DNA of 64,000 bases, from positions 966,918 to 1,030,917 of the forward strand of contig CAVRBO010000001.1 in the NCBI GenBank assembly GCA_963719285.1, written 5' to 3'. Positions 153-43,611 of this stretch are shown piece after piece. The notes beneath the pieces were generated by a model, which searched no databases, was not told the origin of the DNA, and worked only from the letters and a program-made list of their open reading frames with translations. The first letter of the stretch is position 1. Every line of letters begins with the position of its first letter. This DNA comes from an uncultured Chloroflexia bacterium (GTDB lineage Bacteria; Chloroflexota; Limnocylindria; Limnocylindrales; CSP1-4). The position numbers and the translations under genes are program-made.

Positions 153-860
153 TCAGGCGAGCGCCTTCAGGTCATCGATACTGGCCGGCAGCAGGATCGC
201 GTCGCCGGCCTGGATCCTCATGGGATCGTCGATCCCATTGAAGGCGGCCAGGGCGCGCCACAGGCCGGTCCGGCCGAAGTTCGCGTAGGCGACCTGGTCG
301 AGCGTCTCGCGCGGCGCGAGCCGATGGACCCGCTCTCCCGTCCGTCCGCCCGACGTCGGGTTCTGAGTCGGGAATGCGTTCTCGTCGGCGATCTGCATGA
401 ACGTCACGTCGACCGAGGCCCGGACGGGCGTTCCGTCGTCGAGGAACATGCTGAACCGGCTGATGACCTTCTGGACGACCGCATCGAACGACAGGTAGTT
501 GCCCCAGTGGAACCGGACCGTCGGCGGGCGACCCTGGAACGAGTTCGATGGCGCGTCGCCGCCGTTGGCACTGCTCCGACGACCCTTGAGGTCCTTGTTG
601 ACCTTGGTGAGCTCGGTCAGCCTGTTGATGATCTTGGCGACGTTCTGGCCATCCTCCGTTCCGTCGAACAGGAGGGTCACCGCCAGCGTCGCCGGGACTC
701 CACTGGCGAAGGACACTTCGGGCAGGTTCTGACCGTTCGTGTGATGGAGGTTCCAGGTGTTGCTCTTCGTGTAGGTGATCTGGTCGGGGTTGAACATCGC
801 CGTGATCTCGGCCGTGTTCCCTCCCTCCAGGGGCTTGATGTAGGCCATCTCGAGGCTCAT
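153..860 (-). CDS. phage-tail/eCIS baseplate hub or tube-initiator-like protein (Afp7/gpX-like) with C-terminal LysM-like motif
   Basis: 235-aa ORF; C-terminal HRLAPRETLDQVAYANFGRTGLWRALAAFNGIDDPMRIQAGDAILLP fits LysM consensus; located directly downstream of the tape-measure candidate. Confidence 0.55.
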   Translation of the reverse strand: MSLEMAYIKPLEGGNTAEITAMFNPDQITYTKSNTWNLHHTNGQNLPEVSFASGVPATLAVTLLFDGTEDGQNVAKIINRLTELTKVNKDLKGRRSSANGGDAPSNSFQGRPPTVRFHWGNYLSFDAVVQKVISRFSMFLDDGTPVRASVDVTFMQIADENAFPTQNPTSGGRTGERVHRLAPRETLDQVAYANFGRTGLWRALAAFNGIDDPMRIQAGDAILLPASIDDLKALA

Positions 861-3352
861 CGCAACAGTCCTCCCAAGCCGCCCATGCGCTCACGTTCCT
901 CGAGCATGCGCCGCTGGACGGCGTGCACGAGATCGCGCTCCTCCCGGCGCCGGCGCTGGTCCCTGCCGACGGGCAGGGTCCGATCCTCACTCGCCGCCTG
1001 CTCGCCGGGTTCAGCCCCGTGGGTCTCGGAGGCGCCCTGGCCCGATCCCGGGATCCACTCACCGACGTGCACTCGGGATCCGAAATCCGGCGATGGGCTG
1101 GCCGCAGTGCCGGGGAGAGAGAAGGTCGCCGGCGGTCCGGGTGTGAAGGCGAGCGGGGCAAACGCCGGTTCCGGAGGCGCGCCGCTCTCTCGGTCGGGAC
1201 CCTCGGTCGGGGTCGGGCCGGGCCCTTCTCCTTCGTCGATCCGGGTGACAACCTCGGGCGCTCGGGCAGCCAGGTGCTCCCCGGGTGCCTCGGCCGCGGT
1301 CGCTGGGCGCGCGGCGCTCGCCTGCAGCCCGCCGATCAACGTCGCCAGCGGGCTGTCAGCCTCGGCCTGGCCGGGACCACCTGCCGCCGCCTGACCGATC
1401 GCCTCGGCGATGCCGATCAGTCCGGGCGATCCGCTCCCGGCACCGCCGGGAGTCTCGGCGCCCGCGGGTCCTCCCGCCACGGTCGCTCCGCCGGCCGACG
1501 CCTGCGCTGAGGCGATCTCGGTGGCCGATCCGCCGGCAAGCAACTCGCGGATCGTGGGGCTCGTTCCCGGTCCGGCCGTGCCGGTACTCCGGTCCTCGAG
1601 ACCCGACCCTTGGGGTGCACCGCCCTCGGGCACCGGGGTCGAGGCACGGAGCGCGGCGACCGATCCCTCGGGTCCGGGCTGCGACGAGGATGGTGCCGTC
1701 TCGGCCAGCTCGGCCGCACCGCCACCGGCGGCCCGTTCGACCGCGGCGAGATGGCCGACCGCGCCTTCGGCCAGCTCCGTGCCGTGGTCGACGGTCGAGC
1801 GGGCGAGCGTCTCGCCGTGGGCGAGGGCCTGTCCGGCGAGCGTCTCGCCGTGGCTCGTGGCGGCCTGGCCGAGCGCCTCCGCGTGGGCGGCCGCCTCGCC
1901 GGCCAGGGATTCGCCATGGTCGACGACGGACCGCTCCATCGCGCCGAGGTGGCCGGCCGCGGTCTCGGCCAGCTGGGCCGCACCGCCGCCGGTGGCCTGT
2001 TCGATCGCGCCGAGATGGCCGCTCGCCTCCCCCGCCAGGGTCTGGGCGTGGGTCACCGCGGCGTCGCCCAGGGCGGCCGCCTGGGTCGTCGCCTCGCTCG
2101 CCAGGTCGCCGGCATGGCCGACCGCGGCCTGCTCGAGCGCCTCCGCGTGGGCGGCCGTCTCACCGGCCAGGGATTCGCCATGGTCGACGACGGACCGCTC
2201 CATCGCGCCGAGGTGCCCGGCCGCGGTCTCGGCCAGCTCGGCCGCACCGCCACCGGCGGCCCGTTCGACCGCGGCGAGATGGCCGACCGCGCCTTCGGCC
2301 AGCTCCGTGCCGTGGTCGACGGTCGAGCGGGCGAGCGTCTCGCCGTGGGCGAGGGCCTGTCCGGCGAGCGTCTCGCCGTGGCTCGTGGCGGCCTGGCCGA
2401 GCGCCTCCGCGTGGGCGGCCGCCTCGCCGGCCAGGGATTCGCCATGGTCGACGACGGACCGCTCCATCGCGCCGAGGTGGCCGGCCGCGGTCTCGGCCAG
2501 CTGGGCCGCACCGCCGCCGGTGGCCTGTTCGATCGCGCCGAGATGGCCGCTCGCCTCCCCCGCCAGGGTCTGGGCGTGGGTCACCGCGGCGTCGCCCAGG
2601 GCGGCCGCCTGGGTCGTCGCCTCGCTCGCCAGGTCGCCGGCATGGCCGACCGCGGCCTGCTCGAGCGCCTCCGCGTGGGCGGCCGTCTCACCGGCCAGGG
2701 ATTCGCCATGGTCGACGACGGACCGCTCCATCGCGCCGAGGTGCCCGGCCGCGGTCTCGGCCAGCTCGGCCGCACCGCCACCGGCGGCCCGTTCGACCGC
2801 GGCGAGATGGCCGACCGCGCCTTCGGCCAGCTCCGTGCCGTGGTCGACGGTCGAGCGGGCGAGCGTCTCGCCGTGGGCGAGGGCCTGTCCGGCGAGCGTC
2901 TCGCCGTGGCTCGTGGCGGCCTGGCCGAGCGCCTCCGCGTGGGCGGCCGCCTCGCCGGCCAGGGATTCGCCATGGTCGACGACGGACCGCTCCATCGCGC
3001 CGAGGTGGCCGGCCGCGGTCTCGGCCAGCTGGGCCGCACCGCCGCCGGTGGCCTGTTCGATCGCGCCGAGATGGCCGCTCGCCTCCCCCGCCAGGGTCTG
3101 GGCGTGGGTCACCGCGGCGTCGCCCAGGGCGGCCGCCTGGGTCGTCGCCTCGCTCGCCAGGTCGCCGGCATGGCCGACCGCGGCCTGCTCGAGCGCCTCC
3201 GCGTGGGCGGCCGTCTCACCGGCCAGCCGGAGGCTTGCGTCCGCGAGGTCGCGGCTCGGACCGGCCAGCTCGTCCGCTATCCCGCGCGCCCGCGCGAAGA
3301 TGTCGTCCGCGAGTCGGCTGGCCTCGTCGAGGATGTCCCGGGGATCCGCCAC
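857..3352 (-). CDS. repetitive Ala/Gly/His/Glu-rich protein; candidate tail tape-measure protein
   Basis: 831-aa ORF; about 2.9 tandem copies of a 176-aa unit, each made of two diverged 88-aa sub-repeats (ETAAGHLGAMERSVVDHGESLAGE...); sits between tube/chaperone genes and baseplate hub gene, the classical tape-measure position. Confidence 0.5.
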   Translation of the reverse strand: MADPRDILDEASRLADDIFARARGIADELAGPSRDLADASLRLAGETAAHAEALEQAAVGHAGDLASEATTQAAALGDAAVTHAQTLAGEASGHLGAIEQATGGGAAQLAETAAGHLGAMERSVVDHGESLAGEAAAHAEALGQAATSHGETLAGQALAHGETLARSTVDHGTELAEGAVGHLAAVERAAGGGAAELAETAAGHLGAMERSVVDHGESLAGETAAHAEALEQAAVGHAGDLASEATTQAAALGDAAVTHAQTLAGEASGHLGAIEQATGGGAAQLAETAAGHLGAMERSVVDHGESLAGEAAAHAEALGQAATSHGETLAGQALAHGETLARSTVDHGTELAEGAVGHLAAVERAAGGGAAELAETAAGHLGAMERSVVDHGESLAGETAAHAEALEQAAVGHAGDLASEATTQAAALGDAAVTHAQTLAGEASGHLGAIEQATGGGAAQLAETAAGHLGAMERSVVDHGESLAGEAAAHAEALGQAATSHGETLAGQALAHGETLARSTVDHGTELAEGAVGHLAAVERAAGGGAAELAETAPSSSQPGPEGSVAALRASTPVPEGGAPQGSGLEDRSTGTAGPGTSPTIRELLAGGSATEIASAQASAGGATVAGGPAGAETPGGAGSGSPGLIGIAEAIGQAAAGGPGQAEADSPLATLIGGLQASAARPATAAEAPGEHLAARAPEVVTRIDEGEGPGPTPTEGPDRESGAPPEPAFAPLAFTPGPPATFSLPGTAASPSPDFGSRVHVGEWIPGSGQGASETHGAEPGEQAASEDRTLPVGRDQRRRREERDLVHAVQRRMLEERERMGGLGGLLR
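1703..3214. repeat. near-perfect 528-bp tandem repeat array (about 2.9 copies) inside the tape-measure candidate
   Basis: identical strings recur with period 528 nt (tcggccagctcggccgcaccgccaccggcggcccgttcgacc at about 1703, 2231 and 2759); antisense ORFs 2053-2511 and 2581-3039 translate identically. Confidence 0.85.
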
Positions 3353-3353
3353 C

Positions 3354-3833
3354 TCAGATCACCCGCTCGATGCCCTTGTGGGTCAGCTCGATCGTCTCGA
3401 ACGCGAGCAGGGTGCTGTGCGTGTCGAGGAGGGGGCCGTTGTACTTGACCGGGAATGCGCCGGTGAACGTCCAGGTCGCCACGGGTGAGGGCGACTCACC
3501 GTTCATGAGCGTGATCATGCCGTCCGAGCGGGCCTGACCGATCTTGCCGATCTTGACGCTGTCGAACCAGTCGAAGAAGGCCGTTTCCTTGAGGGCGACG
3601 ACGCCTTGCAACACCAGGTTCGGCCAGCTCTTCCTGCCGGGCAGCATCCGGTACTGGCCGGAGGCGCCGCCCTCCCAGATGGGGGTGGTCTCCATGGTCT
3701 GGTCGAGTCCCTTGATCGATCGGCACAGCAGCCAGGTGGACACACCCCACACGGGGACGTAGCCGACCGGCGGATCCACGAGGACCTCGAACCAATGGGC
3801 GCCCGATCCATCGACCAGGCTGCGTTCGCTCAT
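3354..3833 (-). CDS. phage tail tube-like protein (third tube-family paralog, T4 gp19/Afp1-5 family)
   Basis: 159 aa; HWFEVLVD...IKGLDQTMETTPIWEGGASG matches the F-x-V-x-IDG ... vsGl..e.ev.eyrEGG pattern of contractile-tail tube proteins. Confidence 0.45.
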   Translation of the reverse strand: MSERSLVDGSGAHWFEVLVDPPVGYVPVWGVSTWLLCRSIKGLDQTMETTPIWEGGASGQYRMLPGRKSWPNLVLQGVVALKETAFFDWFDSVKIGKIGQARSDGMITLMNGESPSPVATWTFTGAFPVKYNGPLLDTHSTLLAFETIELTHKGIERVI

Positions 3834-3836
3834 GGG

Positions 3837-4163
3837 TCAGCGCCGCCGGTGGTTGAGCTCTTCGTGGAGCTCCAGCAGGCGGGCGCGACGCTCGGCGTCC
3901 GTGCTCATCCGGGGCGCCGGCGGTGCGGTCGGCACGGATACGCCGGCCGCCGGCGCAGCCGCGCCCGGTGCGGACTCGGCGCGTCCGGCGGCCGCGAGCC
4001 AGAGGCGCCGCTCGGCGCCGGGCATGGACATGAGCGTCTCGTAGCTCCAACCGAAGCTCTTCGCCAGGCTGGCCACCTCCTCCACGGTCACGTGCGAGGG
4101 GTGGCCGGCGCTCCCCCCAGGCCACCGACCTCCGGCGGAAGGAGCTCCCCGCAATGGGGACAC
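3837..4163 (-). CDS. small hypothetical protein; candidate downstream (-1 frame) part of a frameshifted tail-assembly chaperone
   Basis: ORF overlaps the preceding 141-aa ORF by 76 nt in the -1 frame; no recognisable domain; likely own start further in (VTVEEVASLAKSFGW...). Confidence 0.35.
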   Translation of the reverse strand: MSPLRGAPSAGGRWPGGSAGHPSHVTVEEVASLAKSFGWSYETLMSMPGAERRLWLAAAGRAESAPGAAAPAAGVSVPTAPPAPRMSTDAERRARLLELHEELNHRRR

Positions 4164-4513
4164 ACGGGCTTCGCCTCGAGGGGGTCGAGGTTGAGCCGGC
4201 GATACAGGCGCTGGAGATAGCTGAAGTCCGAGGCGTAGAGACCCTCGACGACCTCGGGCGTGACGGCTGGCACGGTGCCGAGCCGGGTCACGACCCGAGC
4301 GAGGAGGAGGACCACGAGATACGCCCGGTTGCGGGCGACCCGCGGATCCGTGAGCGGCGCCAGCTCGTCGCGAGCCGTGGCCAGGCGCATCCGGCCGTCC
4401 CGGTGGACGGTCCCGGCTGCGTCGAGATAGCCCTGGGGCAGGCTGAAGTGGACCTCGCTCGCGAGGACCCCTCCGACGCCCGCGACCTCCGCCGGGTCAG
4501 CCATGGCCACCAT
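4088..4513 (-). CDS. small hypothetical protein with C-terminal CPHC motif; candidate tail-assembly chaperone (upstream frame)
   Basis: 141-aa ORF directly after the tube genes, ends ...KPVCPHCGELLPPEVGGLGGAPATPRT; position equals gpG/gpE chaperone slot before tape measure. Confidence 0.4.
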   Translation of the reverse strand: MVAMADPAEVAGVGGVLASEVHFSLPQGYLDAAGTVHRDGRMRLATARDELAPLTDPRVARNRAYLVVLLLARVVTRLGTVPAVTPEVVEGLYASDFSYLQRLYRRLNLDPLEAKPVCPHCGELLPPEVGGLGGAPATPRT

Positions 4514-4516
4514 GGC

Positions 4517-4960
4517 TCAGACCCACTCGAATTTCACGGATTCGCACTGGAAGACCACGGTCTCGACCCACAGGATGCTCTTCTGGATCGACAGGTCGCT
4601 GGCGCTCCACTTGGACGGCCAGGCGTCCGACAGGACGACGATGAGGACGGGCTTCTTGGACGTGTCCCAGAAGGTGATGGTGCAGTCGGCGCGGGCGGAC
4701 CCGATCTCCCCTTCCTGGATCTTCTTGAGGCCGGCCCACCACGGCCCTTCGGCCTGGAGCTGCTCCATGTACCCGGCCGACAGGGTCACCGGGTAGCAGC
4801 CGTACTTGCCGGGGATCTTGAGGATCTTGGGGCTGCCCTTCTCCGAGGACACGTTCTGCTCGAGGACCTTCGTGTCGCTCCTGATGCCGGTGATCCTCGA
4901 GAAGACCCCGGCCGCGGCACCCCAGTTGACGGTGATGGCGTATCCGCCGAGTACTGGCAT
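4517..4960 (-). CDS. phage tail tube protein (Afp5/Pvc5-like paralog)
   Basis: 147 aa; YAITVNWGAAAGVFSRITGIRSDTKVLEQNV fits tube-family N-terminal motif; adjacent to second tube gene and sheath. Confidence 0.6.
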   Translation of the reverse strand: MPVLGGYAITVNWGAAAGVFSRITGIRSDTKVLEQNVSSEKGSPKILKIPGKYGCYPVTLSAGYMEQLQAEGPWWAGLKKIQEGEIGSARADCTITFWDTSKKPVLIVVLSDAWPSKWSASDLSIQKSILWVETVVFQCESVKFEWV

Positions 4961-4963
4961 CGG

Positions 4964-5410
4964 CTACAACCTCGTTCGGGTGATGCCCTCGTGGGCAAGG
5001 GTGACGTCGACCTGGATCCAGCCCTCACCGCCCTGGGGGACGCTCCCGACGGAGATGGCGGACGGCCAGGCGGCCTCGAGATCGAACGACATCACGGGCA
5101 TGTGCGTGGCGTCCTGCATGATGATCGAGACGTGCTTGCGCTCCATCGTCCCGGCCTCGATCTTGTTGCGCCACATGCCGAGCTGGGCGGCCTTCTCGAG
5201 CTCCATGGTCGAAACCGTGACCGTCGAGTTCTTGTTGACGCCCGGGGAGCGGTGCGGGGCGCGGCCCGCACCGCCCCGCGCCTCGGCGTCCTCGAGGACG
5301 GCGACCTCGAACCCGATGCCGGTGACCGAGGTCATGGACATCGGTTCGAGCCCGTCGATGAGGACCTGGAAGTTCCCCATCGTGAGATCGGGGATCCGGG
5401 GAAGTGCCAT
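4964..5410 (-). CDS. phage tail tube protein (Afp1/Pvc1-like)
   Basis: 148 aa; MGNFQVLIDGLEP...VTGIGFEVAVLEDAEARGG is a close match to the gp19/tube family signature; immediately downstream of sheath. Confidence 0.7.
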   Translation of the reverse strand: MALPRIPDLTMGNFQVLIDGLEPMSMTSVTGIGFEVAVLEDAEARGGAGRAPHRSPGVNKNSTVTVSTMELEKAAQLGMWRNKIEAGTMERKHVSIIMQDATHMPVMSFDLEAAWPSAISVGSVPQGGEGWIQVDVTLAHEGITRTRL

Positions 5411-5454: not shown

Positions 5455-6981
5455 TCAGCCCTCGCCGCCCCCGCCGCCCTCGCCGGGCGCGATCTGGCGG
5501 ATGTTGAAGATCACGAACTCGGCCGGACGGACCGGGGCGAGCCCGATCTCGACGACGACCTGCCCCGCCTCGATCACGTCCTGGGGATTGGTCTCTGCGT
5601 CGCACTTGACGTAGAACGCCTCGTCCGGGGTCACCCCGAACAGCGCGCCGTCGCGCCAGACCCGGTTGAGGAACGCCGACGTGTTCCGTCGCAACTTGGC
5701 CCACAGGATGATGTCGTTCGGTTCGAAGACCGACCACTGCGTGCCCTGCATGATCGAGCTCTTGATGAAATTGAACAGGCGGCGCACGTTGAGGTACTTG
5801 AACTCGGGGTCGACCTGGGCGAGCGTGCGGGCGCCCCAGACGCGGACACCGCCGCGCGGGAAGACCCGGATGCAGTTGATGCCGGCCGGGTTGAGCAGGC
5901 CCTGCTCGGCGCTCGTCAGCTGGAGCTGGACGTCGAGCGCGCCGCGGACCGTCTCGTTGGCCGGGGCCTTGTGGACGCCGCGGGTGTCGTCGTTGCGGCC
6001 CCAGATCCCGCCGAGGTAACCCGACGGCGGCATGAACACCGGCTGTCGGCTCAGGGGATCGATGACCTTGACCCACGGGTAGTACAGCGCGGCGTACGAG
6101 CTGTCGACCTTGAGCTGGTCGCGCCGCCAGTCGAAGACCTCCTGGGCGCCCAGGCCCGGGGGCGTGTCGAGGATGGCGACCCGGTCGGCCATCCGCTCGG
6201 CGTGCGACACCAGCGCCAGCTGGATGCCGATCGCCTGGTCCATCGAGATGGCACCCATCGCCTGCATCGGCATGACGTCGGGGGCGAGGACCATCGTGAC
6301 TTCCTCGATCGCCTCGAGGCCGGCGACGCCGGTCCGATCCGCGACGTCGCCGGCGAAGGCGCTCGTCTCGACGTCGGCCGGAGCCGCATCGGCGGCGGCG
6401 AAGGCGTACGTCCCGTCGGCCGGCCGACGCTCGACGAGGCTGCCCTCCGTCGAGACCTCGTCGAGAGTGATGAGCTTGGACCGCGACTTCACCTCGGTGA
6501 GGACGTTGCCCTTGCCCTTCTTGAGCGTGACGTTGTCGTATTCCTCGGTCGCTCCCGCCGGCCCGTGGACGGTCAGCTTGAACGTCTCCTCGGTCGGCTC
6601 GCTGGCCGGCCCGATGTCGACCGACACCTGGGCGGCCGGATCGATGGCGCGGGCGCGCAGGCTCTTGAGCGCGGGATTGGCGCCCGGCAGCAGCGCCTGC
6701 GGGGCGGGCACCGAGCTGTCGCTGTTGACCCGCACGATGTAGGCCCGGCCACCGCCGTTGTCGAAGTAGCCGTAGACGGACAGCGGGGTGGCGTAGCCGG
6801 ACACGAACCCGCCGAACGTGCGCGAGTAGTCGCCCCAGTTGCTGACCATGGTGGCGACGCCGGTGGGACCCTTCTCGGTCATGCCGATGAACGCGGCGAT
6901 CGCCGTGCCGACCCCTTCGATCGGCTTGCTTCCGCCCGGGAGCTCTTTGACGTAGACGCCTGGGGACTGATAGACGGCCAT
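5455..6981 (-). CDS. contractile tail sheath protein
   Basis: 508 aa; N-terminus MAVYQSPGVYVKELPGGSKP... is the canonical sheath start (MAxYxSPGVYVxE); size and position upstream of tube genes. Confidence 0.85.
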   Translation of the reverse strand: MAVYQSPGVYVKELPGGSKPIEGVGTAIAAFIGMTEKGPTGVATMVSNWGDYSRTFGGFVSGYATPLSVYGYFDNGGGRAYIVRVNSDSSVPAPQALLPGANPALKSLRARAIDPAAQVSVDIGPASEPTEETFKLTVHGPAGATEEYDNVTLKKGKGNVLTEVKSRSKLITLDEVSTEGSLVERRPADGTYAFAAADAAPADVETSAFAGDVADRTGVAGLEAIEEVTMVLAPDVMPMQAMGAISMDQAIGIQLALVSHAERMADRVAILDTPPGLGAQEVFDWRRDQLKVDSSYAALYYPWVKVIDPLSRQPVFMPPSGYLGGIWGRNDDTRGVHKAPANETVRGALDVQLQLTSAEQGLLNPAGINCIRVFPRGGVRVWGARTLAQVDPEFKYLNVRRLFNFIKSSIMQGTQWSVFEPNDIILWAKLRRNTSAFLNRVWRDGALFGVTPDEAFYVKCDAETNPQDVIEAGQVVVEIGLAPVRPAEFVIFNIRQIAPGEGGGGGEG

Positions 6982-7010: not shown

Positions 7011-7658
7011 CTAGCGCTCGACGGTTTCGCGGACCCGCGTCCGCAGGTCATCGGTATGGAGTCGGCGGCTCCGGACGATCCCGACCGGGGCGAGCTCGAA
7101 CGGCTGGACAGCCATCGTCATGACCGCCTTGAGGGCCGCCCGCGGCAGCCGCACGAGGCCGTACTCCCACCATGCGTGGAGTTCCGCCTCGGTCGGCGTG
7201 TCGATGACGGCGTAGACCGGGTACTCGCTCTCGATGCCGAGCGCCCGCGCGAGGTCGCCGGCCCGGATACCGGCGGACAGCAGTCGCTCGAGGGCATCGG
7301 CGGCCGCGATCTCGTCACCGCCGGCCTCGAGGGCCACGGTGAGGTCGTACCAGCCGGGCCCGGCTCGCACCGCCATGCCCGTACCGGTGGGATCCCGCGA
7401 GACTTCCCGGGCGGCGGCCTGGAACCGCTCGGTCCGGACGATCGAGACGAGGTGAAGGGTCACCGCGCCGGCCGGATCATCCGCGGCCCGGTCGGCCGTG
7501 GCCGGGCCATCCGAGGCGGACGCCGCGCCGGACCCGGTCAGGGCCGCGGCGGCCGCGCCGGGTCGCCCGACCCGGGCCGGCTGGCCGGTCGCCTCCTGGG
7601 CGAACGTGGCGAGGGCGGTCAACGCTTCAGGAAACACCGGGCGCTCCCGGGCGCTCAT
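7011..7658 (-). CDS. hypothetical protein at head of the sheath operon; possibly tail-terminator-like (DUF4255/Afp16-like), unverified
   Basis: 215-aa ORF, 30 nt upstream of sheath; weak resemblance of VTLHLVSIVRTERF...WYDLTVALEAGG to DUF4255 pattern; many eCIS loci carry that family immediately before the sheath. Confidence 0.3.
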   Translation of the reverse strand: MSARERPVFPEALTALATFAQEATGQPARVGRPGAAAAALTGSGAASASDGPATADRAADDPAGAVTLHLVSIVRTERFQAAAREVSRDPTGTGMAVRAGPGWYDLTVALEAGGDEIAAADALERLLSAGIRAGDLARALGIESEYPVYAVIDTPTEAELHAWWEYGLVRLPRAALKAVMTMAVQPFELAPVGIVRSRRLHTDDLRTRVRETVER

Positions 7659-8007
7659 CGCCGGTCAGGGCCTCGCGCAGGGTGCTCGCCGTGACGGGCT
7701 CAAGGGTGAAGCTCGCACCGCTCGCCGGATGCACCCGCAAGCGCGGCCGATCGTCGTCGCACTCGACCACCTGGAGGGCCGGCTGGCGGGCCCGCAACGC
7801 GCGCACGATCGCGTCGGCCTCCGGACCCATCCGCACGATCACGGCGTCCGGATGGAGGCGGACGACGGCGTCGGTGAGGACCCGCGGATCGGCGAGACCA
7901 TCGGCCGCCGCCGCGTCGAGGACGTCGAAGTGCTCCTCGATGAGGGTCTGGGTCAACCCCCGGGCGACCAGGGGGTCGAGGTCTCCGATGAGGACACGGC
8001 TCGCCAC
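7627..8007 (-). CDS. small receiver-domain-like protein lacking the canonical phospho-acceptor Asp (atypical/pseudo receiver), hypothetical
   Basis: 126 aa; VLIGDLDPLVARGL...HPDAVIVRMG aligns with REC motifs (VLIVDDHPLVR ... PDVVLMDL) but R replaces the phosphorylated D; first gene after the promoter region. Confidence 0.35.
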   Translation of the reverse strand: MASRVLIGDLDPLVARGLTQTLIEEHFDVLDAAAADGLADPRVLTDAVVRLHPDAVIVRMGPEADAIVRALRARQPALQVVECDDDRPRLRVHPASGASFTLEPVTASTLREALTGDERPGAPGVS

Positions 8008-29048: not shown

Positions 29049-30068
29049 TCAGGCGAACCGCTCGAGGTCGCCCAGCGGGACGACCGCGGCCGTCCCGTCG
29101 TCGAAGCGGATCCGGCCGGCCTCCAGGTGGGCGCCGGCGCGGAATCGGCGCAACCCGGCGAGGCCCTCCCAGCGGCCCTCGCGACCGGCCCACGGTCCGT
29201 GGGCGATGCGCACGTGGACCGGATCGAGCTCCGGCACCTCGGCCGGGGCGAACCCGAACAGCAGGCACGGCGGATCGGCGGCGATGCCGACCTCACGACC
29301 CGCATGGGCGCGCAGGAGGGCGAGGGCCGGTTCCGCGATCGGGCGGCGGAGGTGGCCGTCGAGGACGAGGACGCCGAACGGGGCGGCCCGATGCAGGCTC
29401 GCCCGCTGTCGCGCCTCGGATGCGGCGAAGTCACGGCCGTCCTTGTCCGACAGCGCGGCGACGACGATGCCCCGGACGCCCATCGCCCGGGCCCGGCTCA
29501 GCGTCTCCGCGTCGACCCGGGCGTCGAACACGAGGATCGTCCCCGCACGCCCCACGTCGATCGCCCCGGGCCGCGCCTCCCCATCGCCGGTGGCCGCGAT
29601 CTCCAGCCGGCCGCGGGCCGGGCCGCCGAGCGACTGGACACCCAGGAGCGCGAGGCCGGGCACATCGACCGACAGGGCGATCCCCGGCCGGACATCGCGG
29701 ACGACTCCCGCCGCCGGCGCCTCGAGCGCGTCGACGGCCGTGCCGACGGCCATCCGCCAGCGACCGTCGGCCCGGGTGACGAGCTCACCGCCGGATCCAT
29801 CGGCCGCCGCGACCCAGGCCCCCGACCGCGACGCCGCGCCCGTCGCGGCGGTGCCGGCGTCCACCAGGGTCGCCTCGGCCGTCCGCTCGGCCAGCGGCGC
29901 CCCGGGGGAGACGACGTCGCCGGCGCGCACGAGGGGCCGGTCCCCGACGGCGAGCGGGAACCGGACGAGCGGATCGTGGAGGGTCAGACGGTGCACCCGG
30001 ACGAGGGCGAGGCCCGGTGCGAGCTCCTGCGGGGCACGGCGGGCGCCCGGCGGCGGCGTCCCGATCAA
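29049..30068 (-). CDS. hypothetical protein (339 aa), no confident family assignment
   Basis: long ORF co-directional and 30 nt downstream of the 544-aa gene; N-terminal VRVHRLTLHDPLVRFPLAVGDRPLVRAGDVVSPGAPLAE resembles a barrel-sandwich/lipoyl-like segment. Confidence 0.4.
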   Translation of the reverse strand: MIGTPPPGARRAPQELAPGLALVRVHRLTLHDPLVRFPLAVGDRPLVRAGDVVSPGAPLAERTAEATLVDAGTAATGAASRSGAWVAAADGSGGELVTRADGRWRMAVGTAVDALEAPAAGVVRDVRPGIALSVDVPGLALLGVQSLGGPARGRLEIAATGDGEARPGAIDVGRAGTILVFDARVDAETLSRARAMGVRGIVVAALSDKDGRDFAASEARQRASLHRAAPFGVLVLDGHLRRPIAEPALALLRAHAGREVGIAADPPCLLFGFAPAEVPELDPVHVRIAHGPWAGREGRWEGLAGLRRFRAGAHLEAGRIRFDDGTAAVVPLGDLERFA

Positions 30069-30098
30069 TGGGTGCCCCCTATCATCCGGTGCCCCCGC

Positions 30099-31733
30099 TC
30101 ATCCGATGCCCCCGGTCCACAACGCGTCCTGCCAGGCGATGAGCAGCTCGCGCCGATGCTCGGGGCGATCCGGCAGGCGCAGCGGCACGTCGCGCAGGTC
30201 GACGAGCAGCCCACCCAGGCCGCCACCGACCTCGACCGAGAACTTCCGGCCGCGGGTTCCGAGCACGACGGGCTCCGAGAACGCGAATTCGGCGGTGGCG
30301 ATCTGGCCCGGCGGCAGGTCGACCAGCTGGAGCGCGCCGGGGACGAGATCGAGCTCCGAGAGGCCCGCCCCGGCCCGGATCGTCAGGCGGCCCGCGCTCC
30401 GCCCGGCACGCAGGCCCCGGGGCGAGATGACGCTGCCGAGCGGCGCCAGCAGGTCGTCCGCGAGGTCCTCCATGAGGCGCCGGCGTTGCGACTCCTCCGG
30501 CACGACCCCCAGCGGGGCGAGGAGCCGGGCGTGATCCAGGGTGAGTTGGCAGGCGGCCGGCCGGCGGATGGTGTCGGCGAGGGCCAGGGCCACCGCCGGG
30601 CCGGGGGCCACCGCGAACGCCCCGCCCGTCGCCACGATGAGATCCGGTGGTGGCAGCTCGTCGATCGCAGGGGTGGCGTCCACGAGCCGGACGAGCGCGG
30701 CCCGGGCCGCGGCCAGGCGGAGCGCGGCGCCGTCGCCGTCCGCGTCGCCCCACGGAGAGCGTCGCAGCTCGGCCAGCCGGTCGCGCATCCGGATCCGGTC
30801 CATCGCCACGGTCGACCAGGCCATCACGCCGCCCACGATCTCCTCGTCGAGCGTCTCCGGCACGAGGCCGGCGTCGGGCACGATGGCCGCCCGCCAGGTG
30901 GTCCCGCCCGGTTCGTCCGTGTCGGTCGGCGGCGTCGGCCAGGCCGCCACCCGGGCGCCCGAATCGAGGCCGATCGAGACCGTCTCCACCCGCCGGCCGA
31001 CGACACCCGCGAGGGTCGCCGTCGCCCGCACGATCCCGCCGATCGCGTCATTCGGTCGTGCCCGCAGGCGGTCCAGGAACGCGACGAGCGGGTCGTCGAG
31101 GAGACCCTCGGACCCCGGACCCGGGGCGAACAGCCGGGTGACCGGTGCGGCGCCGTCGAGCGGGTCGGCGGAGGCCGGCTGGCCGGCGCCACTCGCCAGG
31201 CCGCCGCTCGCGACGATCGTCAGCTCGGGACGCCGGTCCTCGATCGCGGCGAGGAGGGCGCCGAGCTGGCCGAGACGGCTCCGCTCGGCCCCGGCGGGCG
31301 GATCGAGCGTCCCCGCGAGCACGGCGTGGACGGCCGACCCGAGGGCGAGCCGGAGCAGCTCGAGCGGGCCGTCGCGCTCGACACTGCCCGACGAGGTGCG
31401 CCAGCCGGCGGCCGCCGCGGCCCTGACCAGCCGATCGCGGGTCGCTTCGGTGGCGGCGAGCACGGCCAGCCACGGCGGGACGGCACTCCGGGCGACGAGC
31501 CGCGGCCAGCTCGCGACAGGCCCGAGATCGGACGCGCCGATCTCCCTTCCGATGGCGGCATCCGCCGCCAGGACACGCTCGAGCAGGCGATCGAGGATCG
31601 CCTCGAGCGGGATGCCCGTCGGCAGGGCGAGGGCGCCGAGGAGGCGCCAGTGGCCGGACGCGTGCCCGACGAGCGCGGCGGACGTCGTCGCGGCGCCCTG
31701 GTCGATCGCGAAGAAGGCTCGGGGTTCGCTCAC
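30099..31733 (-). CDS. hypothetical ASKHA-fold (actin/EutA/MutL-reactivase-like) protein
   Basis: 544 aa; N-terminal AFFAIDQGAATTSAALVGH and LIVATGGAF resemble phosphate-1 and adenosine motifs of actin-like ATPases; family not resolved. Confidence 0.4.
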   Translation of the reverse strand: MSEPRAFFAIDQGAATTSAALVGHASGHWRLLGALALPTGIPLEAILDRLLERVLAADAAIGREIGASDLGPVASWPRLVARSAVPPWLAVLAATEATRDRLVRAAAAAGWRTSSGSVERDGPLELLRLALGSAVHAVLAGTLDPPAGAERSRLGQLGALLAAIEDRRPELTIVASGGLASGAGQPASADPLDGAAPVTRLFAPGPGSEGLLDDPLVAFLDRLRARPNDAIGGIVRATATLAGVVGRRVETVSIGLDSGARVAAWPTPPTDTDEPGGTTWRAAIVPDAGLVPETLDEEIVGGVMAWSTVAMDRIRMRDRLAELRRSPWGDADGDGAALRLAAARAALVRLVDATPAIDELPPPDLIVATGGAFAVAPGPAVALALADTIRRPAACQLTLDHARLLAPLGVVPEESQRRRLMEDLADDLLAPLGSVISPRGLRAGRSAGRLTIRAGAGLSELDLVPGALQLVDLPPGQIATAEFAFSEPVVLGTRGRKFSVEVGGGLGGLLVDLRDVPLRLPDRPEHRRELLIAWQDALWTGGIG

Positions 31734-43209: not shown

Positions 43210-43611
43210 CTAGCGCTTGGTGTACTGCGGCGCCTTGCGGGCTCGCTTGAGGCCGTACTTCTTGCGCTCCTTCATCCGCGGATCGCGGGTGAGCAGGCCG
43301 GCCTGGCGCAGCGGCACGCGGTGCGCGTCGGGATCGAGCTGGAGGAGGGCGCGGGCGATGCCGTGGCGGATCGCGCCGGCCTGGCCGGTCACGCCGCCGC
43401 CCTCGACCTTGATCATCGCGTTGTAGCGGCCCTCCGTGCCGGTGACCCGGAACGGCATCCGCAGGTCCGCCTCGTTGACGGCATTGCCGAAGTGCTCGAC
43501 CAGAGTCCGGCCGTTGACGACGATCTCACCCTCGCCCGGCAGGAGCCGGACGCGGGCGACGGCGGTCTTGCGGCGACCGGTCCCGAACGAGAAGGCGGTG
43601 GGGGTGCTCAT
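43210..43611 (-). CDS. rpsI: 30S ribosomal protein S9
   Basis: C-terminal ...RKAPQYTKR and [19 protein letters not shown]. Confidence 0.9.

What the first reader, a model, noticed from the sequence alone, without database searches (positions are those of the whole stretch)
1703..3214. Near-perfect 528-bp tandem repeats build the tape-measure candidate
The 831-aa protein is dominated by about 2.9 copies of a 528-nt unit that are essentially identical at the DNA level; identical strings recur at period 528. Each unit is an older, diverged duplication of an 88-aa Ala/Gly/His/Glu-rich helical motif. Tape-measure length sets tail length, so gain or loss of 176-aa units would change tail length in steps. 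The DNA-level identity implies very recent expansion, ongoing recombination, or an assembly artefact (collapsed or expanded copy number). The His-rich periodicity (HLGA, HAEAL, HGETL, HGTEL) is unusual for tape measures and could indicate metal binding.
Basis: seen in the sequence. Interest (0 to 1): 0.65.

Follow-up and report, generated by a model that had tools for sequence, protein, structure and literature searches.

The report
Repeat-built ruler protein of a nanosyringe
A gene in a bacterial phage-tail-like injection machine sits where the length-setting "tape measure" protein belongs and contains nearly three DNA-identical 528-base repeats of a histidine-marked 11-residue helix motif; four related lineages keep almost the same gene length, and three of them also carry near-identical repeats of their own diverged version, which fits a molecular ruler and is a new variation on a known theme.

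Summary
Window 1698-3226 is a perfect period-528 array: 2.90 copies, 0 mismatches over 1001 compared positions. It lies inside an 831-aa ORF (857-3352, minus strand).

The ORF lies in a chromosomal contractile-injection-system (CIS) operon whose sheath closely resembles S. coelicolor CIS-Sc Cis2. It occupies the tape-measure slot, after a tail-assembly-chaperone-like gene that carries a conserved slippery heptamer and hairpin, and directly before the tube initiator and spike.

Residues 1-550 form 50 hendecads in unbroken register. All 37 His of the array sit at one position. After that come a ~245-aa disordered linker and an invariant C-terminal helix.

No known tape-measure family, PHROG, NCBIfam, PDB chain or phage genome matches. 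Only about 20 mostly fragmentary relatives turned up among 1.8 billion representatives.

Five assemblies beyond the window (four further lineages plus a near-identical strain) show the same gene. Copies are 96-100% identical within a genome but only 70-73% between well-separated lineages (~90% between the two closest), and one lineage is not homogenised. Gene length stays at 2496-2626 nt. That indicates recurrent homogenisation under a length constraint, and it argues against assembly artefact. No stepwise length variation was seen.

Verdict: probable tape-measure-type ruler and a new protein family. It is a new variant of a known kind. The metal-binding idea is untested.

The parts
857..3352 (-). 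831-aa tape-measure-slot gene (GTG start; its stop overlaps the ATG of the next gene as ATGA)
   Evidence: called as an 831-aa gene in the near-identical L010
1698..3226 (-). Perfect period-528 tandem array, 2.90 copies, 0 mismatches. Each unit is two 264-nt half-units (76% identical), or eight 66-nt (22-aa) sub-repeats.
1703..3352 (-). Residues 1-550: 50 hendecads in unbroken register, predicted alpha-helix interrupted only at GGG every 88 aa. His at hendecad position 6 (37 of 50), L/M/I/V at position 10 (47 of 50).
3221..3352 (-). Conserved non-repeat N-terminal 44 aa (dN/dS 0.10 against L001)
968..1702 (-). Residues 551-795: Pro/Gly/Ala-rich, predicted-disordered linker with three short motifs shared by relatives (SPTIxELLA, GPLAxLIxxLQA, EWIPG)
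857..967 (-). Residues 796-831: invariant C-terminal helix AVQRR[ML]LEERERMGGLGGL[IL]R, the proposed hub/spike anchor
   Evidence: (pLDDT ~87)
4088..4513 (-). 141-aa tail-assembly-chaperone-like gene (phrog_508, E 1e-8), conserved at 46-51% aa identity in the actinobacterial and other distant CIS loci fetched
4112..4118 (-). G_GGG_GGA slippery heptamer in the chaperone's reading frame, 8 codons before its stop; conserved in L001, L015 and L010
4069..4109 (-). Strong hairpin starting 2-5 nt after the heptamer (the 82-nt segment folds at -41 kcal/mol, z = -2.8)
3837..4163 (-). ORF in the -1 frame overlapping the chaperone's end. It has a DUF6760-like core (PF20546, E 9e-5, below cutoff) and is called as an 84-aa gene (3837-4091) in L010.
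3354..3833 (-). 159-aa gp19-type tube adaptor (Cis5/Cis1b-like), immediately upstream of the repeat gene
153..860 (-). 235-aa CIS_tube (PF19266) tube initiator, Cis7-like; best PDB match is 9gtp_P of CIS-Sc
4517..5410 (-). Two gp19-type inner tube genes (147 and 148 aa)
5455..6981 (-). 508-aa contractile sheath; best PDB hits are the CIS-Sc Cis2 entries 8bky/9gtp (E 7e-154, full length)

Best explanation
The 831-aa protein is most likely the tape-measure-type ruler, and transient luminal component, of a chromosomally encoded contractile injection system related to Streptomyces CIS-Sc.

Proposed mechanism (every step is inferred):
1. The upstream chaperone, possibly made in a short form and a -1 frameshift-extended form as for phage G/GT or P2 E/E', keeps the protein extended.
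2. The invariant C-terminal helix docks in the hub formed by the Cis7-like tube initiator and the VgrG-like spike.
3. The 550-residue hendecad helix, probably as a parallel oligomer, extends from the hub while tube and sheath polymerise around it.
4. Polymerisation stops where the conserved N-terminus ends.

At about 1.5 Angstrom per helical residue, the helical part measures ~83 nm, a 176-aa unit ~26 nm (roughly 6-7 tube layers), and an 88-aa half-unit ~13 nm.

The DNA-identical repeats are not a special device. They are the footprint of recurrent unequal recombination or gene conversion between 528-nt units. Such events keep the reading frame and the 11-residue register, so they are tolerated as long as total length stays near the selected value.

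The His at hendecad position 6 lies at the edge of the narrow Ala/Leu stripe. It is under strong constraint and probably forms an inter-helix or helix-tube polar zipper.
For: Shown:
- Context: the operon order is sheath, tube, tube, chaperone-like gene, -1 ORF, tube adaptor, this gene, CIS_tube initiator, VgrG, gp25, Baseplate_J, P2_I. Start and stop codons abut or overlap.
- The sheath and the initiator match the solved CIS-Sc chains best.
- The chaperone-like gene hits phrog_508 'tail assembly chaperone' at E 1e-8. It carries a conserved G_GGG_GGA heptamer plus a hairpin, and the -1 ORF overlaps its end.
- Architecture: helix 4-550, disorder 551-795, C-terminal helix 796-829 (secondary structure only). 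Hydrophobic periodicity peaks sharply at 3.667 residues. There are 50 hendecads with no indel.
- About 5% of annotated phage tape measures have 11-residue units with a marker residue (PMC3271669).
- Constraint: hendecad position 6 (His) is 100% conserved between the window and L001, position 10 (Leu) 94%, and surface positions 31%. dN/dS is 0.10 for the N-terminus, 0.28 for the C-terminus and 0.57 for the repeat unit. The C-terminal 23 residues are invariant or nearly so in 9 relatives.
- Length: gene length is 2496, 2559, 2516, 2626 (noisy assembly) and 2547 nt in five lineages. Their arrays hold 2.90, 2.43, 2.46 and 2.46 homogenised copies, and one is unhomogenised.
- Concerted evolution: copies are 96-100% identical within a genome and 70-73% between well-separated lineages. 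The L001 and L015 units are ~89.5% identical although their sheaths are 96% identical. L016 has only 77% identity at offset 528.

Established knowledge: tape-measure length sets tail length at about 1.5 Angstrom per residue in lambda and T4 (cited in PMC13585406). Afp14 regulates the length of Afp, an extracellular contractile injection system (cited in PMC10066040).
Against: - There is no detectable homology to any tape-measure family. Pfam gives only Apolipoprotein at 63.8 bits, below the cutoff of 90. NCBIfam and PHROGs give nothing credible. PDB sequences give nothing. tblastn against 50,697 phage genomes gives nothing, and IMG/VR gives nothing.
- A 245-aa disordered linker between the helix and the C-terminal anchor is not typical.
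- The tube-adaptor gene lies between the chaperone and this gene, unlike in P2 or the pyocins.
- For the nearest characterised system, the authors state that no typical tape measure is encoded. They also report that the tube lumen looks mostly empty when the effectors Sco4256-58 are deleted. So a lumen-filling ruler is not evident in mature CIS-Sc.
- The length-conservation argument rests on only five lineages, three of them from noisy assemblies.
- The AlphaFold model has low confidence (mean pLDDT 47.6).
Confidence: 0.65

Rival explanations
1. The protein is a luminal cargo or effector, or a cargo-loading scaffold, comparable to the tape-measure-related effectors Tme and Sle1 of Streptomyces CIS. 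Length would then be set by something else.
For: Tme is likewise the largest ORF and lies immediately upstream of the tube initiator and spike, in a CIS clade that includes Chloroflexota. Sle1-type effectors have a long N-terminal coiled coil. In CIS-Sc, luminal density depends on effectors. There is no tape-measure homology.
Against: There is no DUF4157 domain in the protein or in its neighbours. It has no transmembrane hairpin and no enzymatic or otherwise globular C-terminal domain. Sle1/Sle2 are encoded upstream of the sheath on the opposite strand, not in this slot. Total length is conserved while the sequence turns over, which a pure cargo would not need. The two roles are not mutually exclusive.
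Confidence: 0.18
2. The three identical units are an assembly or polishing artefact, from an expanded or collapsed copy number or from homogenisation by multi-mapped reads.
For: A 1.5-kb perfect repeat cannot be resolved by short reads. All short-read-derived relatives are truncated inside the gene. Polishing can erase small differences between copies.
Against: A second assembly from a different sample, with 11 SNPs in 13.8 kb of flank, has the identical array. L001, L014 and L015 each have their own 2.4-2.5-copy array, with a few retained mismatches. All five lineages have the same gene length within 5%. The ORF stays open and in hendecad register throughout.
Confidence: 0.04
3. The identity reflects one very recent triplication in this strain only. 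There is no ongoing process and no length constraint.
For: Zero mismatches among the copies. The window lacks the ~60-aa unique helical segment (QTIGEAL...AGxREAA...) that follows the array in L001, L016 and P0033, as if the array had expanded over it.
Against: Three other lineages independently carry near-identical 528-nt arrays whose units are only 70-79% identical to each other. The close pair L001/L015 differ by ~10% between genomes but by at most about 4% within each genome. L016 keeps the same length without homogenisation. Recurrence plus constant length is better explained by repeated conversion, or by deletion and re-duplication, under selection.
Confidence: 0.1
4. It is an apolipoprotein- or LEA-like amphipathic-helix protein that binds membranes or lipids and is unrelated to tail assembly.
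For: The Pfam Apolipoprotein hit has E 2e-17. The only non-fragment hits in the exhaustive search are 22-mer apolipoprotein-like repeat proteins.
Against: The score is below the Pfam gathering threshold (63.8 against 90), and identity is only 19-24% and driven by periodicity. The gene is translationally coupled inside a tail operon, and its conserved termini are found only in this operon context.
Confidence: 0.03

Closest known systems
Phage tape measure proteins with 11-residue units (Staphylococcus phages and others; Belcaid et al. 2011, PMC3271669)
   Same: Long helical protein in the tail operon. Strict 11-residue period with a marker residue. Variable numbers of tandem units arise by duplication and loss, which keep the register.
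   Different: The marker is His, not Trp or Phe. The units are nested (11, 22, 88, 176 aa). There is no sequence similarity. The host structure is a contractile injection system, not a phage. The repeats are DNA-identical within a genome.
P2 gpT / R-type pyocin tape measure with the gpE/E+E' frameshifting chaperones
   Same: Gene order: sheath, tube, chaperone with a -1 slippery site, long helical protein, hub/spike, gp25 (W), J, I. Size is similar (about 800-850 aa, from my own knowledge).
   Different: No homology. A tube-adaptor gene is inserted between chaperone and ruler. There is a long disordered linker. The frameshift is inferred only.
Afp14/Pvc14 tape measures of extracellular contractile injection systems (eCIS)
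   Same: Presumed function: length control of a CIS particle (Rybakova 2015, cited).
   Different: No sequence match. In Afp and PVC the gene lies after the baseplate genes (own knowledge), not between tube and initiator.
Streptomyces CIS-Sc (PDB 8bky, 9gtp) and its 1327-aa slot protein
   Same: It is the nearest solved system for the sheath and the initiator. The TAC-like and DUF6760 genes are the same. A large no-Pfam protein with conserved termini, ending in ...RER.G...R, sits in the equivalent slot.
   Different: The Streptomyces protein is Pro/Ala-rich with irregular PVQR motifs and is not helical. It lies before, not after, the small tube adaptor. Profile-profile similarity of the C-termini, tested with the related actinobacterial slot proteins (L002-L007), is not significant. 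Published work says CIS-Sc has no typical tape measure.
Tme (S. davawensis) and Sle1 (S. lividans), tape-measure-related CIS effectors
   Same: Tme is the largest ORF and lies immediately upstream of the tube initiator and spike. Both have coiled-coil segments. The Tme clade includes Chloroflexota.
   Different: This protein has no DUF4157 domain or DUF4157 partner, no transmembrane helices and no nuclease or other functional C-terminal domain.
Apolipoprotein A-I/A-IV/E 11/22-mer amphipathic repeats (PF01442)
   Same: 11/22-residue helical periodicity, rich in Ala, Glu and Leu.
   Different: Below the Pfam threshold. Different context. The His marker is not a feature of that family.

Membership tests
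Tape measure protein (functional class of long-tailed phages and CIS) | Encoded in the tail operon between the tube/chaperone genes and the baseplate hub/spike genes | tested here: met
   Order established. The start abuts the Cis5-like stop, and the stop overlaps the Cis7-like start.
Tape measure protein (functional class of long-tailed phages and CIS) | Long, predominantly alpha-helical or coiled-coil polypeptide; largest ORF of the tail module | tested here: met
   Helix 4-550 in the AF2 secondary structure. Periodicity of 11/3 residues. At 831 aa it is the largest ORF in the cluster.
Tape measure protein (functional class of long-tailed phages and CIS) | Preceded by tail assembly chaperone gene(s) with a programmed -1 frameshift | tested here: inconclusive
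   phrog_508 hit at E 1e-8. Conserved G_GGG_GGA heptamer, hairpin and -1 ORF. The downstream ORF also has its own GTG in a GTGA overlap, and no frameshift product has been shown.
Tape measure protein (functional class of long-tailed phages and CIS) | Protein length proportional to tail length | not testable with these tools
   Needs EM of particles from unit-insertion and unit-deletion variants. The only indirect evidence is conserved gene length in five lineages.
Known tape-measure sequence families (Pfam, TIGRFAM and PHROG tape-measure models; Afp14/Pvc14) | Significant profile match | tested here: not met
   No tape-measure model hit in Pfam, NCBIfam or PHROGs. No PDB chain. No phage genome by tblastn.
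11-residue-unit tape measures (Belcaid 2011) | [FW]-x(10) repeated at least 7 times (or the 11-11-18 variant) | tested here: not met
   The period of 11 is met over 50 units, but the marker residue is His; there is no Trp or Phe in the array. It behaves like that class but does not fit its pattern.
Apolipoprotein A1/A4/E domain (PF01442) | Score at or above the gathering threshold of 90 bits | tested here: not met
   63.8 bits.
Tme/Sle1-type tape-measure-related CIS effectors | DUF4157 domain in the protein or in an adjacent partner; a functional C-terminal domain or transmembrane hairpin | tested here: not met
   No DUF4157 in the protein or in the 14-gene cluster. The C-terminal 280 aa have no family hit and are predicted disordered apart from one helix.
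CIS-Sc-class contractile injection system (the cluster as a whole) | Sheath, inner tube, CIS_tube initiator, VgrG-like spike, gp25, Baseplate_J-like and P2_I-like wedge proteins | tested here: met
   sheath and initiator match 8bky/9gtp best.
CIS-Sc-class contractile injection system (the cluster as a whole) | AAA+ ATPase (Cis15) and Pvc16_N terminator (Cis16) in the cluster | tested here: not met
   None in the 20-kb near-identical locus L010, which spans the cluster plus ~6-7 kb on each side, nor among the window ORFs scanned upstream of the sheath. Both are present in the Kribbella relative. The two ORFs upstream of the sheath (126 and 215 aa) have no match. These genes could lie further away.

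The most novel reading that the evidence does not exclude
The whole CIS-Sc class, which is published as lacking a tape measure although its particles are uniform in length, does encode a ruler. It would be a fast-evolving slot protein with conserved termini, served by a conserved chaperone whose DUF6760 extension is made by -1 frameshifting.

In most actinomycetes the measuring part would be a Pro/Ala-rich chain that gene callers truncate or that goes unrecognised. In this lineage it has been replaced by a His-zippered hendecad coiled coil. Its repeats are continually overwritten by recombination while selection holds the length. The invariant His ladder (one His every 16.5 Angstrom) would make its assembly or ejection sensitive to pH or metal ions.
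Probability: 0.25. Interest if true: 0.7.

Novelty: new variant of a known kind. Interest (0 to 1): 0.5.

Why it matters
If this is the ruler, it gives a natural experiment on how tail-like machines measure length. The sequence of the measuring region is repeatedly overwritten (identical repeats within a genome, ~30% divergence between genomes), while the 11-residue register, one His and one Leu per hendecad, and the total length are held. That pattern points to which features a tape measure actually needs.

It also bears on a stated puzzle for the closest characterised system. CIS-Sc particles are uniform at 268 nm, yet no tape-measure gene has been recognised. The equivalent slot is occupied in every relative examined here, including Streptomyces.

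Practically, in-frame 176-aa and 88-aa modules would be convenient handles for engineering particle length in programmable injection systems.

On its own, tandem repeats in a tape measure are a known theme, so the finding is of moderate interest and not surprising to specialists.

Tried and rejected
1. The word-indexed homologue search with the full protein found nothing, because low-complexity words saturated it. It was replaced by the exhaustive phmmer search.
2. The large 19-24%-identical hits from that search (P0034, P0039, P0040, P0047) are apolipoprotein-like, chitin-binding or other repeat proteins, not tail proteins. I rejected them as periodicity matches.
3. The PHROG 'tail tube protein' hit (phrog_1120) on the repeat region has no individual significant stretch, so I treated it as compositional.
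4. I tested whether the C-terminal ...RER.G...R motif is shared with the actinobacterial slot proteins. hhalign gave probability 0.4% and E 0.16 over 12 columns, so no homology is claimed.
5. The PDB profile hits to MamM and LpxD are chance.
6. The viral-contig scan found no relative. The metagenome scan found only three contigs truncated inside the gene.
7. P0031, a 246-aa 'fused' chaperone, looked like natural support for frameshifting. It comes from a noisy contig with many indels (L014), so I do not count it.
8. Regular spacing of VQR motifs in the Streptomyces-type slot proteins, as a possible per-layer ruler mark, is rejected. The spacings are irregular (16-184 aa) and Kribbella has none.
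9. I did not run a fold search on the AF2 model, because the mean pLDDT of 47.6 would make the matches meaningless.
10. Rfam found no RNA family anywhere in the window.
11. The module-by-module orthology scan between the window and L016 gave only mosaic 70-82% matches, so no clean donor module could be named.
Full report
**Observation.** The window is ~72% G+C. Comparing each base with the base 528 positions further on gives an unbroken run of 1001 identities, from 1698 to 2698. Window 1698-3226 is therefore a perfect array of 2.90 copies of a 528-nt unit. Tandem Repeats Finder and the repeat finder show older periods nested inside it: 264 nt at 80% matches and 66 nt at ~62%, with about 20 copies. 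The two 264-nt halves of a unit are 76% identical. The array lies in an ORF on the minus strand, 857-3352, with a GTG start, 831 aa and GC3 of 0.87.

**Is it an artefact?** The exact 831-aa sequence is not in the 15-billion-protein collection, but its neighbours are. Through them I recovered L010, a 2.04-Mb contig from another ENA analysis. L010 differs from the window at 11 of 13,833 aligned positions and carries the gene with identical sequence and copy number. Four further lineages were recovered:
- L001, a MAG labelled uncultured Chloroflexia
- L014
- L015
- L016

Their sheath genes are ~92% identical to the window's (L001 and L015 are 96% identical to each other), and all have the same gene in the same place. 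Measured between the conserved N- and C-terminal anchors, gene length is 2496 nt in the window, 2559 in L001, 2516 in L014, 2626 in L015 (a noisy assembly) and 2547 in L016. An assembly error in copy number is therefore unlikely.

**Context.** The rest of the window is housekeeping: a ribosomal protein operon with EF-Tu and EF-G, glmS/glmM/glmU, cdaA-ybbR, alr, tsaD and ksgA. The cluster is thus chromosomal and not a prophage. Read along the minus strand, and completed from L010, the operon runs:
1. 126-aa and 215-aa unknowns
2. sheath (508 aa)
3. two gp19-type tube proteins
4. a 141-aa protein
5. a small overlapping ORF
6. a 159-aa gp19/CIS5-like adaptor
7. the repeat protein
8. a CIS_tube (PF19266) initiator
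9. a VgrG-like spike
10. gp25, a Baseplate_J-like protein and a P2_I-like protein

The sheath matches the S. coelicolor CIS-Sc sheath (8bky/9gtp) over its full length at E 7e-154. The initiator matches 9gtp_P best. No AAA+ ATPase or Pvc16_N terminator was found in L010, which reaches ~6-7 kb beyond the cluster on each side, or among the window ORFs scanned upstream.

**The chaperone.** The 141-aa protein hits phrog_508, 'tail assembly chaperone', at E 1e-8. It is 46-51% identical to a protein at the same position in the actinobacterial and other distant CIS loci fetched. Eight codons before its stop lies G_GGG_GGA (window 4118-4112), in the correct phase for -1 slippage. The heptamer is conserved in L001, L015 and L010 and is followed after 2-5 nt by a strong hairpin (-41 kcal/mol, z = -2.8). 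The overlapping downstream ORF is in the -1 frame and has a weak DUF6760 match. This is the arrangement that precedes tape-measure genes in long-tailed phages. The downstream ORF also has a GTGA start-stop overlap, so frameshifting is not proven.

**Anatomy of the protein.**
- Residues 1-550 can be written as 50 consecutive 11-residue units without a single insertion or deletion. All 37 His of the array fall at unit position 6. Position 10 is Leu, Met, Ile or Val in 47 of 50 units, and position 3 is Ala in 32. The hydrophobicity spectrum has sharp peaks at 3.667 residues (11/3), the hendecad coiled-coil value, and at 5.5 (11/2), with little power at 3.5 or 3.6.
- A single-sequence AlphaFold model has low confidence (mean pLDDT 47.6). 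Its secondary structure is nonetheless clear: helix 4-550, broken only at the GGG motif every 88 residues; disorder 551-795 with a few short helices; and a helix at 796-829 with pLDDT ~87.
- On an 11/3 helical wheel, Leu10, Ala3 and position 7 form a narrow stripe, and His6 sits at its edge. This placement is my inference.

**Relatives and family status.** An exhaustive phmmer scan of 1.84 billion representatives gave 21 hits at E <= 1e-3. About eleven of these are true relatives, and all are fragments: one N-terminal piece, one array piece and nine C-terminal pieces, the longest (P0033, 407 aa) reaching back into the end of the array. They share three things:
- an N-terminal 44 residues
- three short linker motifs
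- an invariant C-terminal AVQRR[ML]LEERERMGGLGGL[IL]R

The remaining hits are apolipoprotein-like or unrelated repeat proteins. Pfam gives only Apolipoprotein, below threshold (63.8 against 90 bits). NCBIfam, PHROGs, PDB sequences, 50,697 phage genomes and IMG/VR give nothing usable. This is therefore a small, undescribed family, so far seen only in this operon.

**Evolution of the repeats.**

| Lineage | 528-nt copies | Identity between copies |
|---|---|---|
| Window (and L010) | 2.90 | 100% |
| L001 | 2.43 | 2 mismatches in 757 |
| L014 | 2.46 | 98-99% |
| L015 | 2.46 | 96-98% (indel noise) |
| L016 | same length and 88-aa module plan | only 77% at offset 528 |

Between well-separated lineages the units are only 70-73% identical in register and 73-79% at the best rotation. 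The alignment is gap-free, and half-unit A pairs with A and B with B. The close pair L001/L015 have units ~89.5% identical, although each is 96-99.7% homogeneous internally. L001 and L014 have N-termini 89% identical but units about 71-78% identical, as if different modules had been amplified.

In the window, the array abuts the Pro-rich linker directly. The ~60-aa unique helical segment present after the array in L001, L016 and P0033 is missing.

Taken together, this is recurrent and independent homogenisation, by gene conversion or by deletion followed by re-duplication, of an ancestral array of diverged 88-aa modules, with total length held nearly constant. Between the window and L001, hendecad position 6 is 100% conserved and position 10 is 94% conserved, while positions 1 and 8 are 31% conserved. 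dN/dS is 0.57 for the unit, 0.10 for the N-terminus and 0.28 for the C-terminus.

**Interpretation.** The slot, the chaperone, the long register-perfect helix, the conserved termini and the conserved length together make a tape-measure-type ruler the best explanation. I put this at about 0.65. The 11-residue unit with a marker residue is documented for about 5% of annotated phage tape measures, where the marker is Trp or Phe (PMC3271669); here it is His. At ~1.5 Angstrom per residue, a 176-aa unit would add ~26 nm. What I saw was turnover at constant length.

The main rival is a luminal cargo or effector role like that of Tme or Sle1 (PMC11126660, PMC13277306). However, the protein lacks DUF4157, transmembrane helices and any functional C-terminal domain. 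Evidence against the ruler reading:
- There is no homology to known tape measures.
- The disordered linker is long.
- Published work states that CIS-Sc and SLP clusters lack a typical tape measure.
- The CIS-Sc lumen looks empty without the effectors Sco4256-58.

**Wider context found on the way.** In actinobacterial relatives (L002-L007, Kribbella L017), the slot between the DUF6760 ORF and the small tube adaptor holds an uninterrupted ORF of 588-956 codons. This ORF has a conserved N-terminus and a conserved C-terminus (DLDELARRL..PL..RL..EL..DRER.G). Public annotation calls only its last 35-105 residues and leaves a 2.1-kb 'empty' gap in Kribbella. In a Streptomyces genome whose Cis7 is 92% identical to the solved CIS-Sc chain, the slot holds an annotated 1327-aa no-Pfam protein of the same type. 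Its VQR motifs are irregularly spaced, and homology of this family's C-terminus to the window family is not significant. In six distant loci the string CGC CTG GGG GAA T at the chaperone's end is invariant, including at synonymous sites. In three of them there is no start codon before the conserved DUF6760 sequence. This strengthens the case for a conserved recoding event in this class of systems. No paper in the library mentions DUF6760 or a frameshifting chaperone in CIS.

**Verdict.** This is a new variant of a known kind, and interest is moderate at 0.5.

Noticed in passing
window 4088-4513 (-), heptamer 4112-4118, hairpin 4069-4109, -1 ORF 3837-4163: The tail-assembly-chaperone-like gene carries an in-phase G_GGG_GGA heptamer 8 codons before its stop. 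A strong hairpin follows, and a DUF6760-like ORF lies in the -1 frame. This is a G/GT-like recoding arrangement that has apparently not been described for contractile injection systems.
   Followed up: partly
L017:7497-7600, L002:6330-6430, L003, L004, L006, L007 (ends of the chaperone genes): In six distant CIS loci the nucleotides CGC CTG GGG GAA T at the chaperone's end are invariant, including at synonymous sites. In L017, L002 and L006 no ATG, GTG or TTG precedes the conserved DUF6760 sequence (..TYAxDRL..). This suggests the DUF6760 part is made by frameshifting and not by separate initiation.
   Followed up: partly
L017:7712-10309; L002:6548-9418; L003:6546-9371; L004:6547-9411; L005:6646-9171; L006:6833-9391; L007:7801-9567: Actinobacterial CIS loci hold an uninterrupted low-complexity ORF of 588-956 codons with conserved N- and C-termini in the tape-measure slot. 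Public annotation calls only the last 35-105 aa (161 database hits, all listed ones short) and leaves a 2.1-kb unannotated gap in Kribbella.
   Followed up: partly
L018:5502-9485 (Streptomyces sp., GCA_044454745.1): A CIS-Sc-type Streptomyces cluster has a 1327-aa Pro/Ala-rich no-Pfam protein between DUF6760 and the small tube adaptor. It has 21 irregular [VILA]QR motifs and ends in ...ELRMDRERIGRLRDPR. Published work says this class lacks a typical tape measure although its particles are uniform in length.
   Followed up: partly
L001:8850-9500: The L001 orthologue has three frame changes and an in-frame stop within the linker region (runs of Arg-rich mistranslation). This could be nanopore indel noise or a decaying gene; which one was not resolved.
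   Followed up: no
window 7011-7658 (-) and 7627-8007 (-): Two conserved ORFs (215 and 126 aa) directly upstream of the sheath have no match in Pfam, NCBIfam or PHROGs; the 215-aa one also has no PDB match. They may be the terminator or cap of this system. No Pvc16_N or AAA+ ATPase was found in L010 (~6-7 kb beyond the cluster on each side) or among the window ORFs scanned.
   Followed up: partly
L010:19285-20271 (just beyond window position 1); L018:15668-17140: A Zn-ribbon plus NADase_transloc protein follows the baseplate genes, both in the window's near-identical strain and in Streptomyces. By position it is equivalent to the membrane adaptor CisA (Sco4242) of CIS-Sc.
   Followed up: no
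window 43298-43390 (+): ARAGORN calls a 93-nt tRNA-Pro(ggg) that overlaps a minus-strand ORF (43210-43611), and Rfam finds no tRNA there. It is probably a false positive.
   Followed up: partly
window 29049-31733 (-): Two ORFs (339 and 544 aa) in the most G+C-rich part of the window (~77%) have no Pfam match. Their sequences look globular and they sit among housekeeping genes.
   Followed up: no
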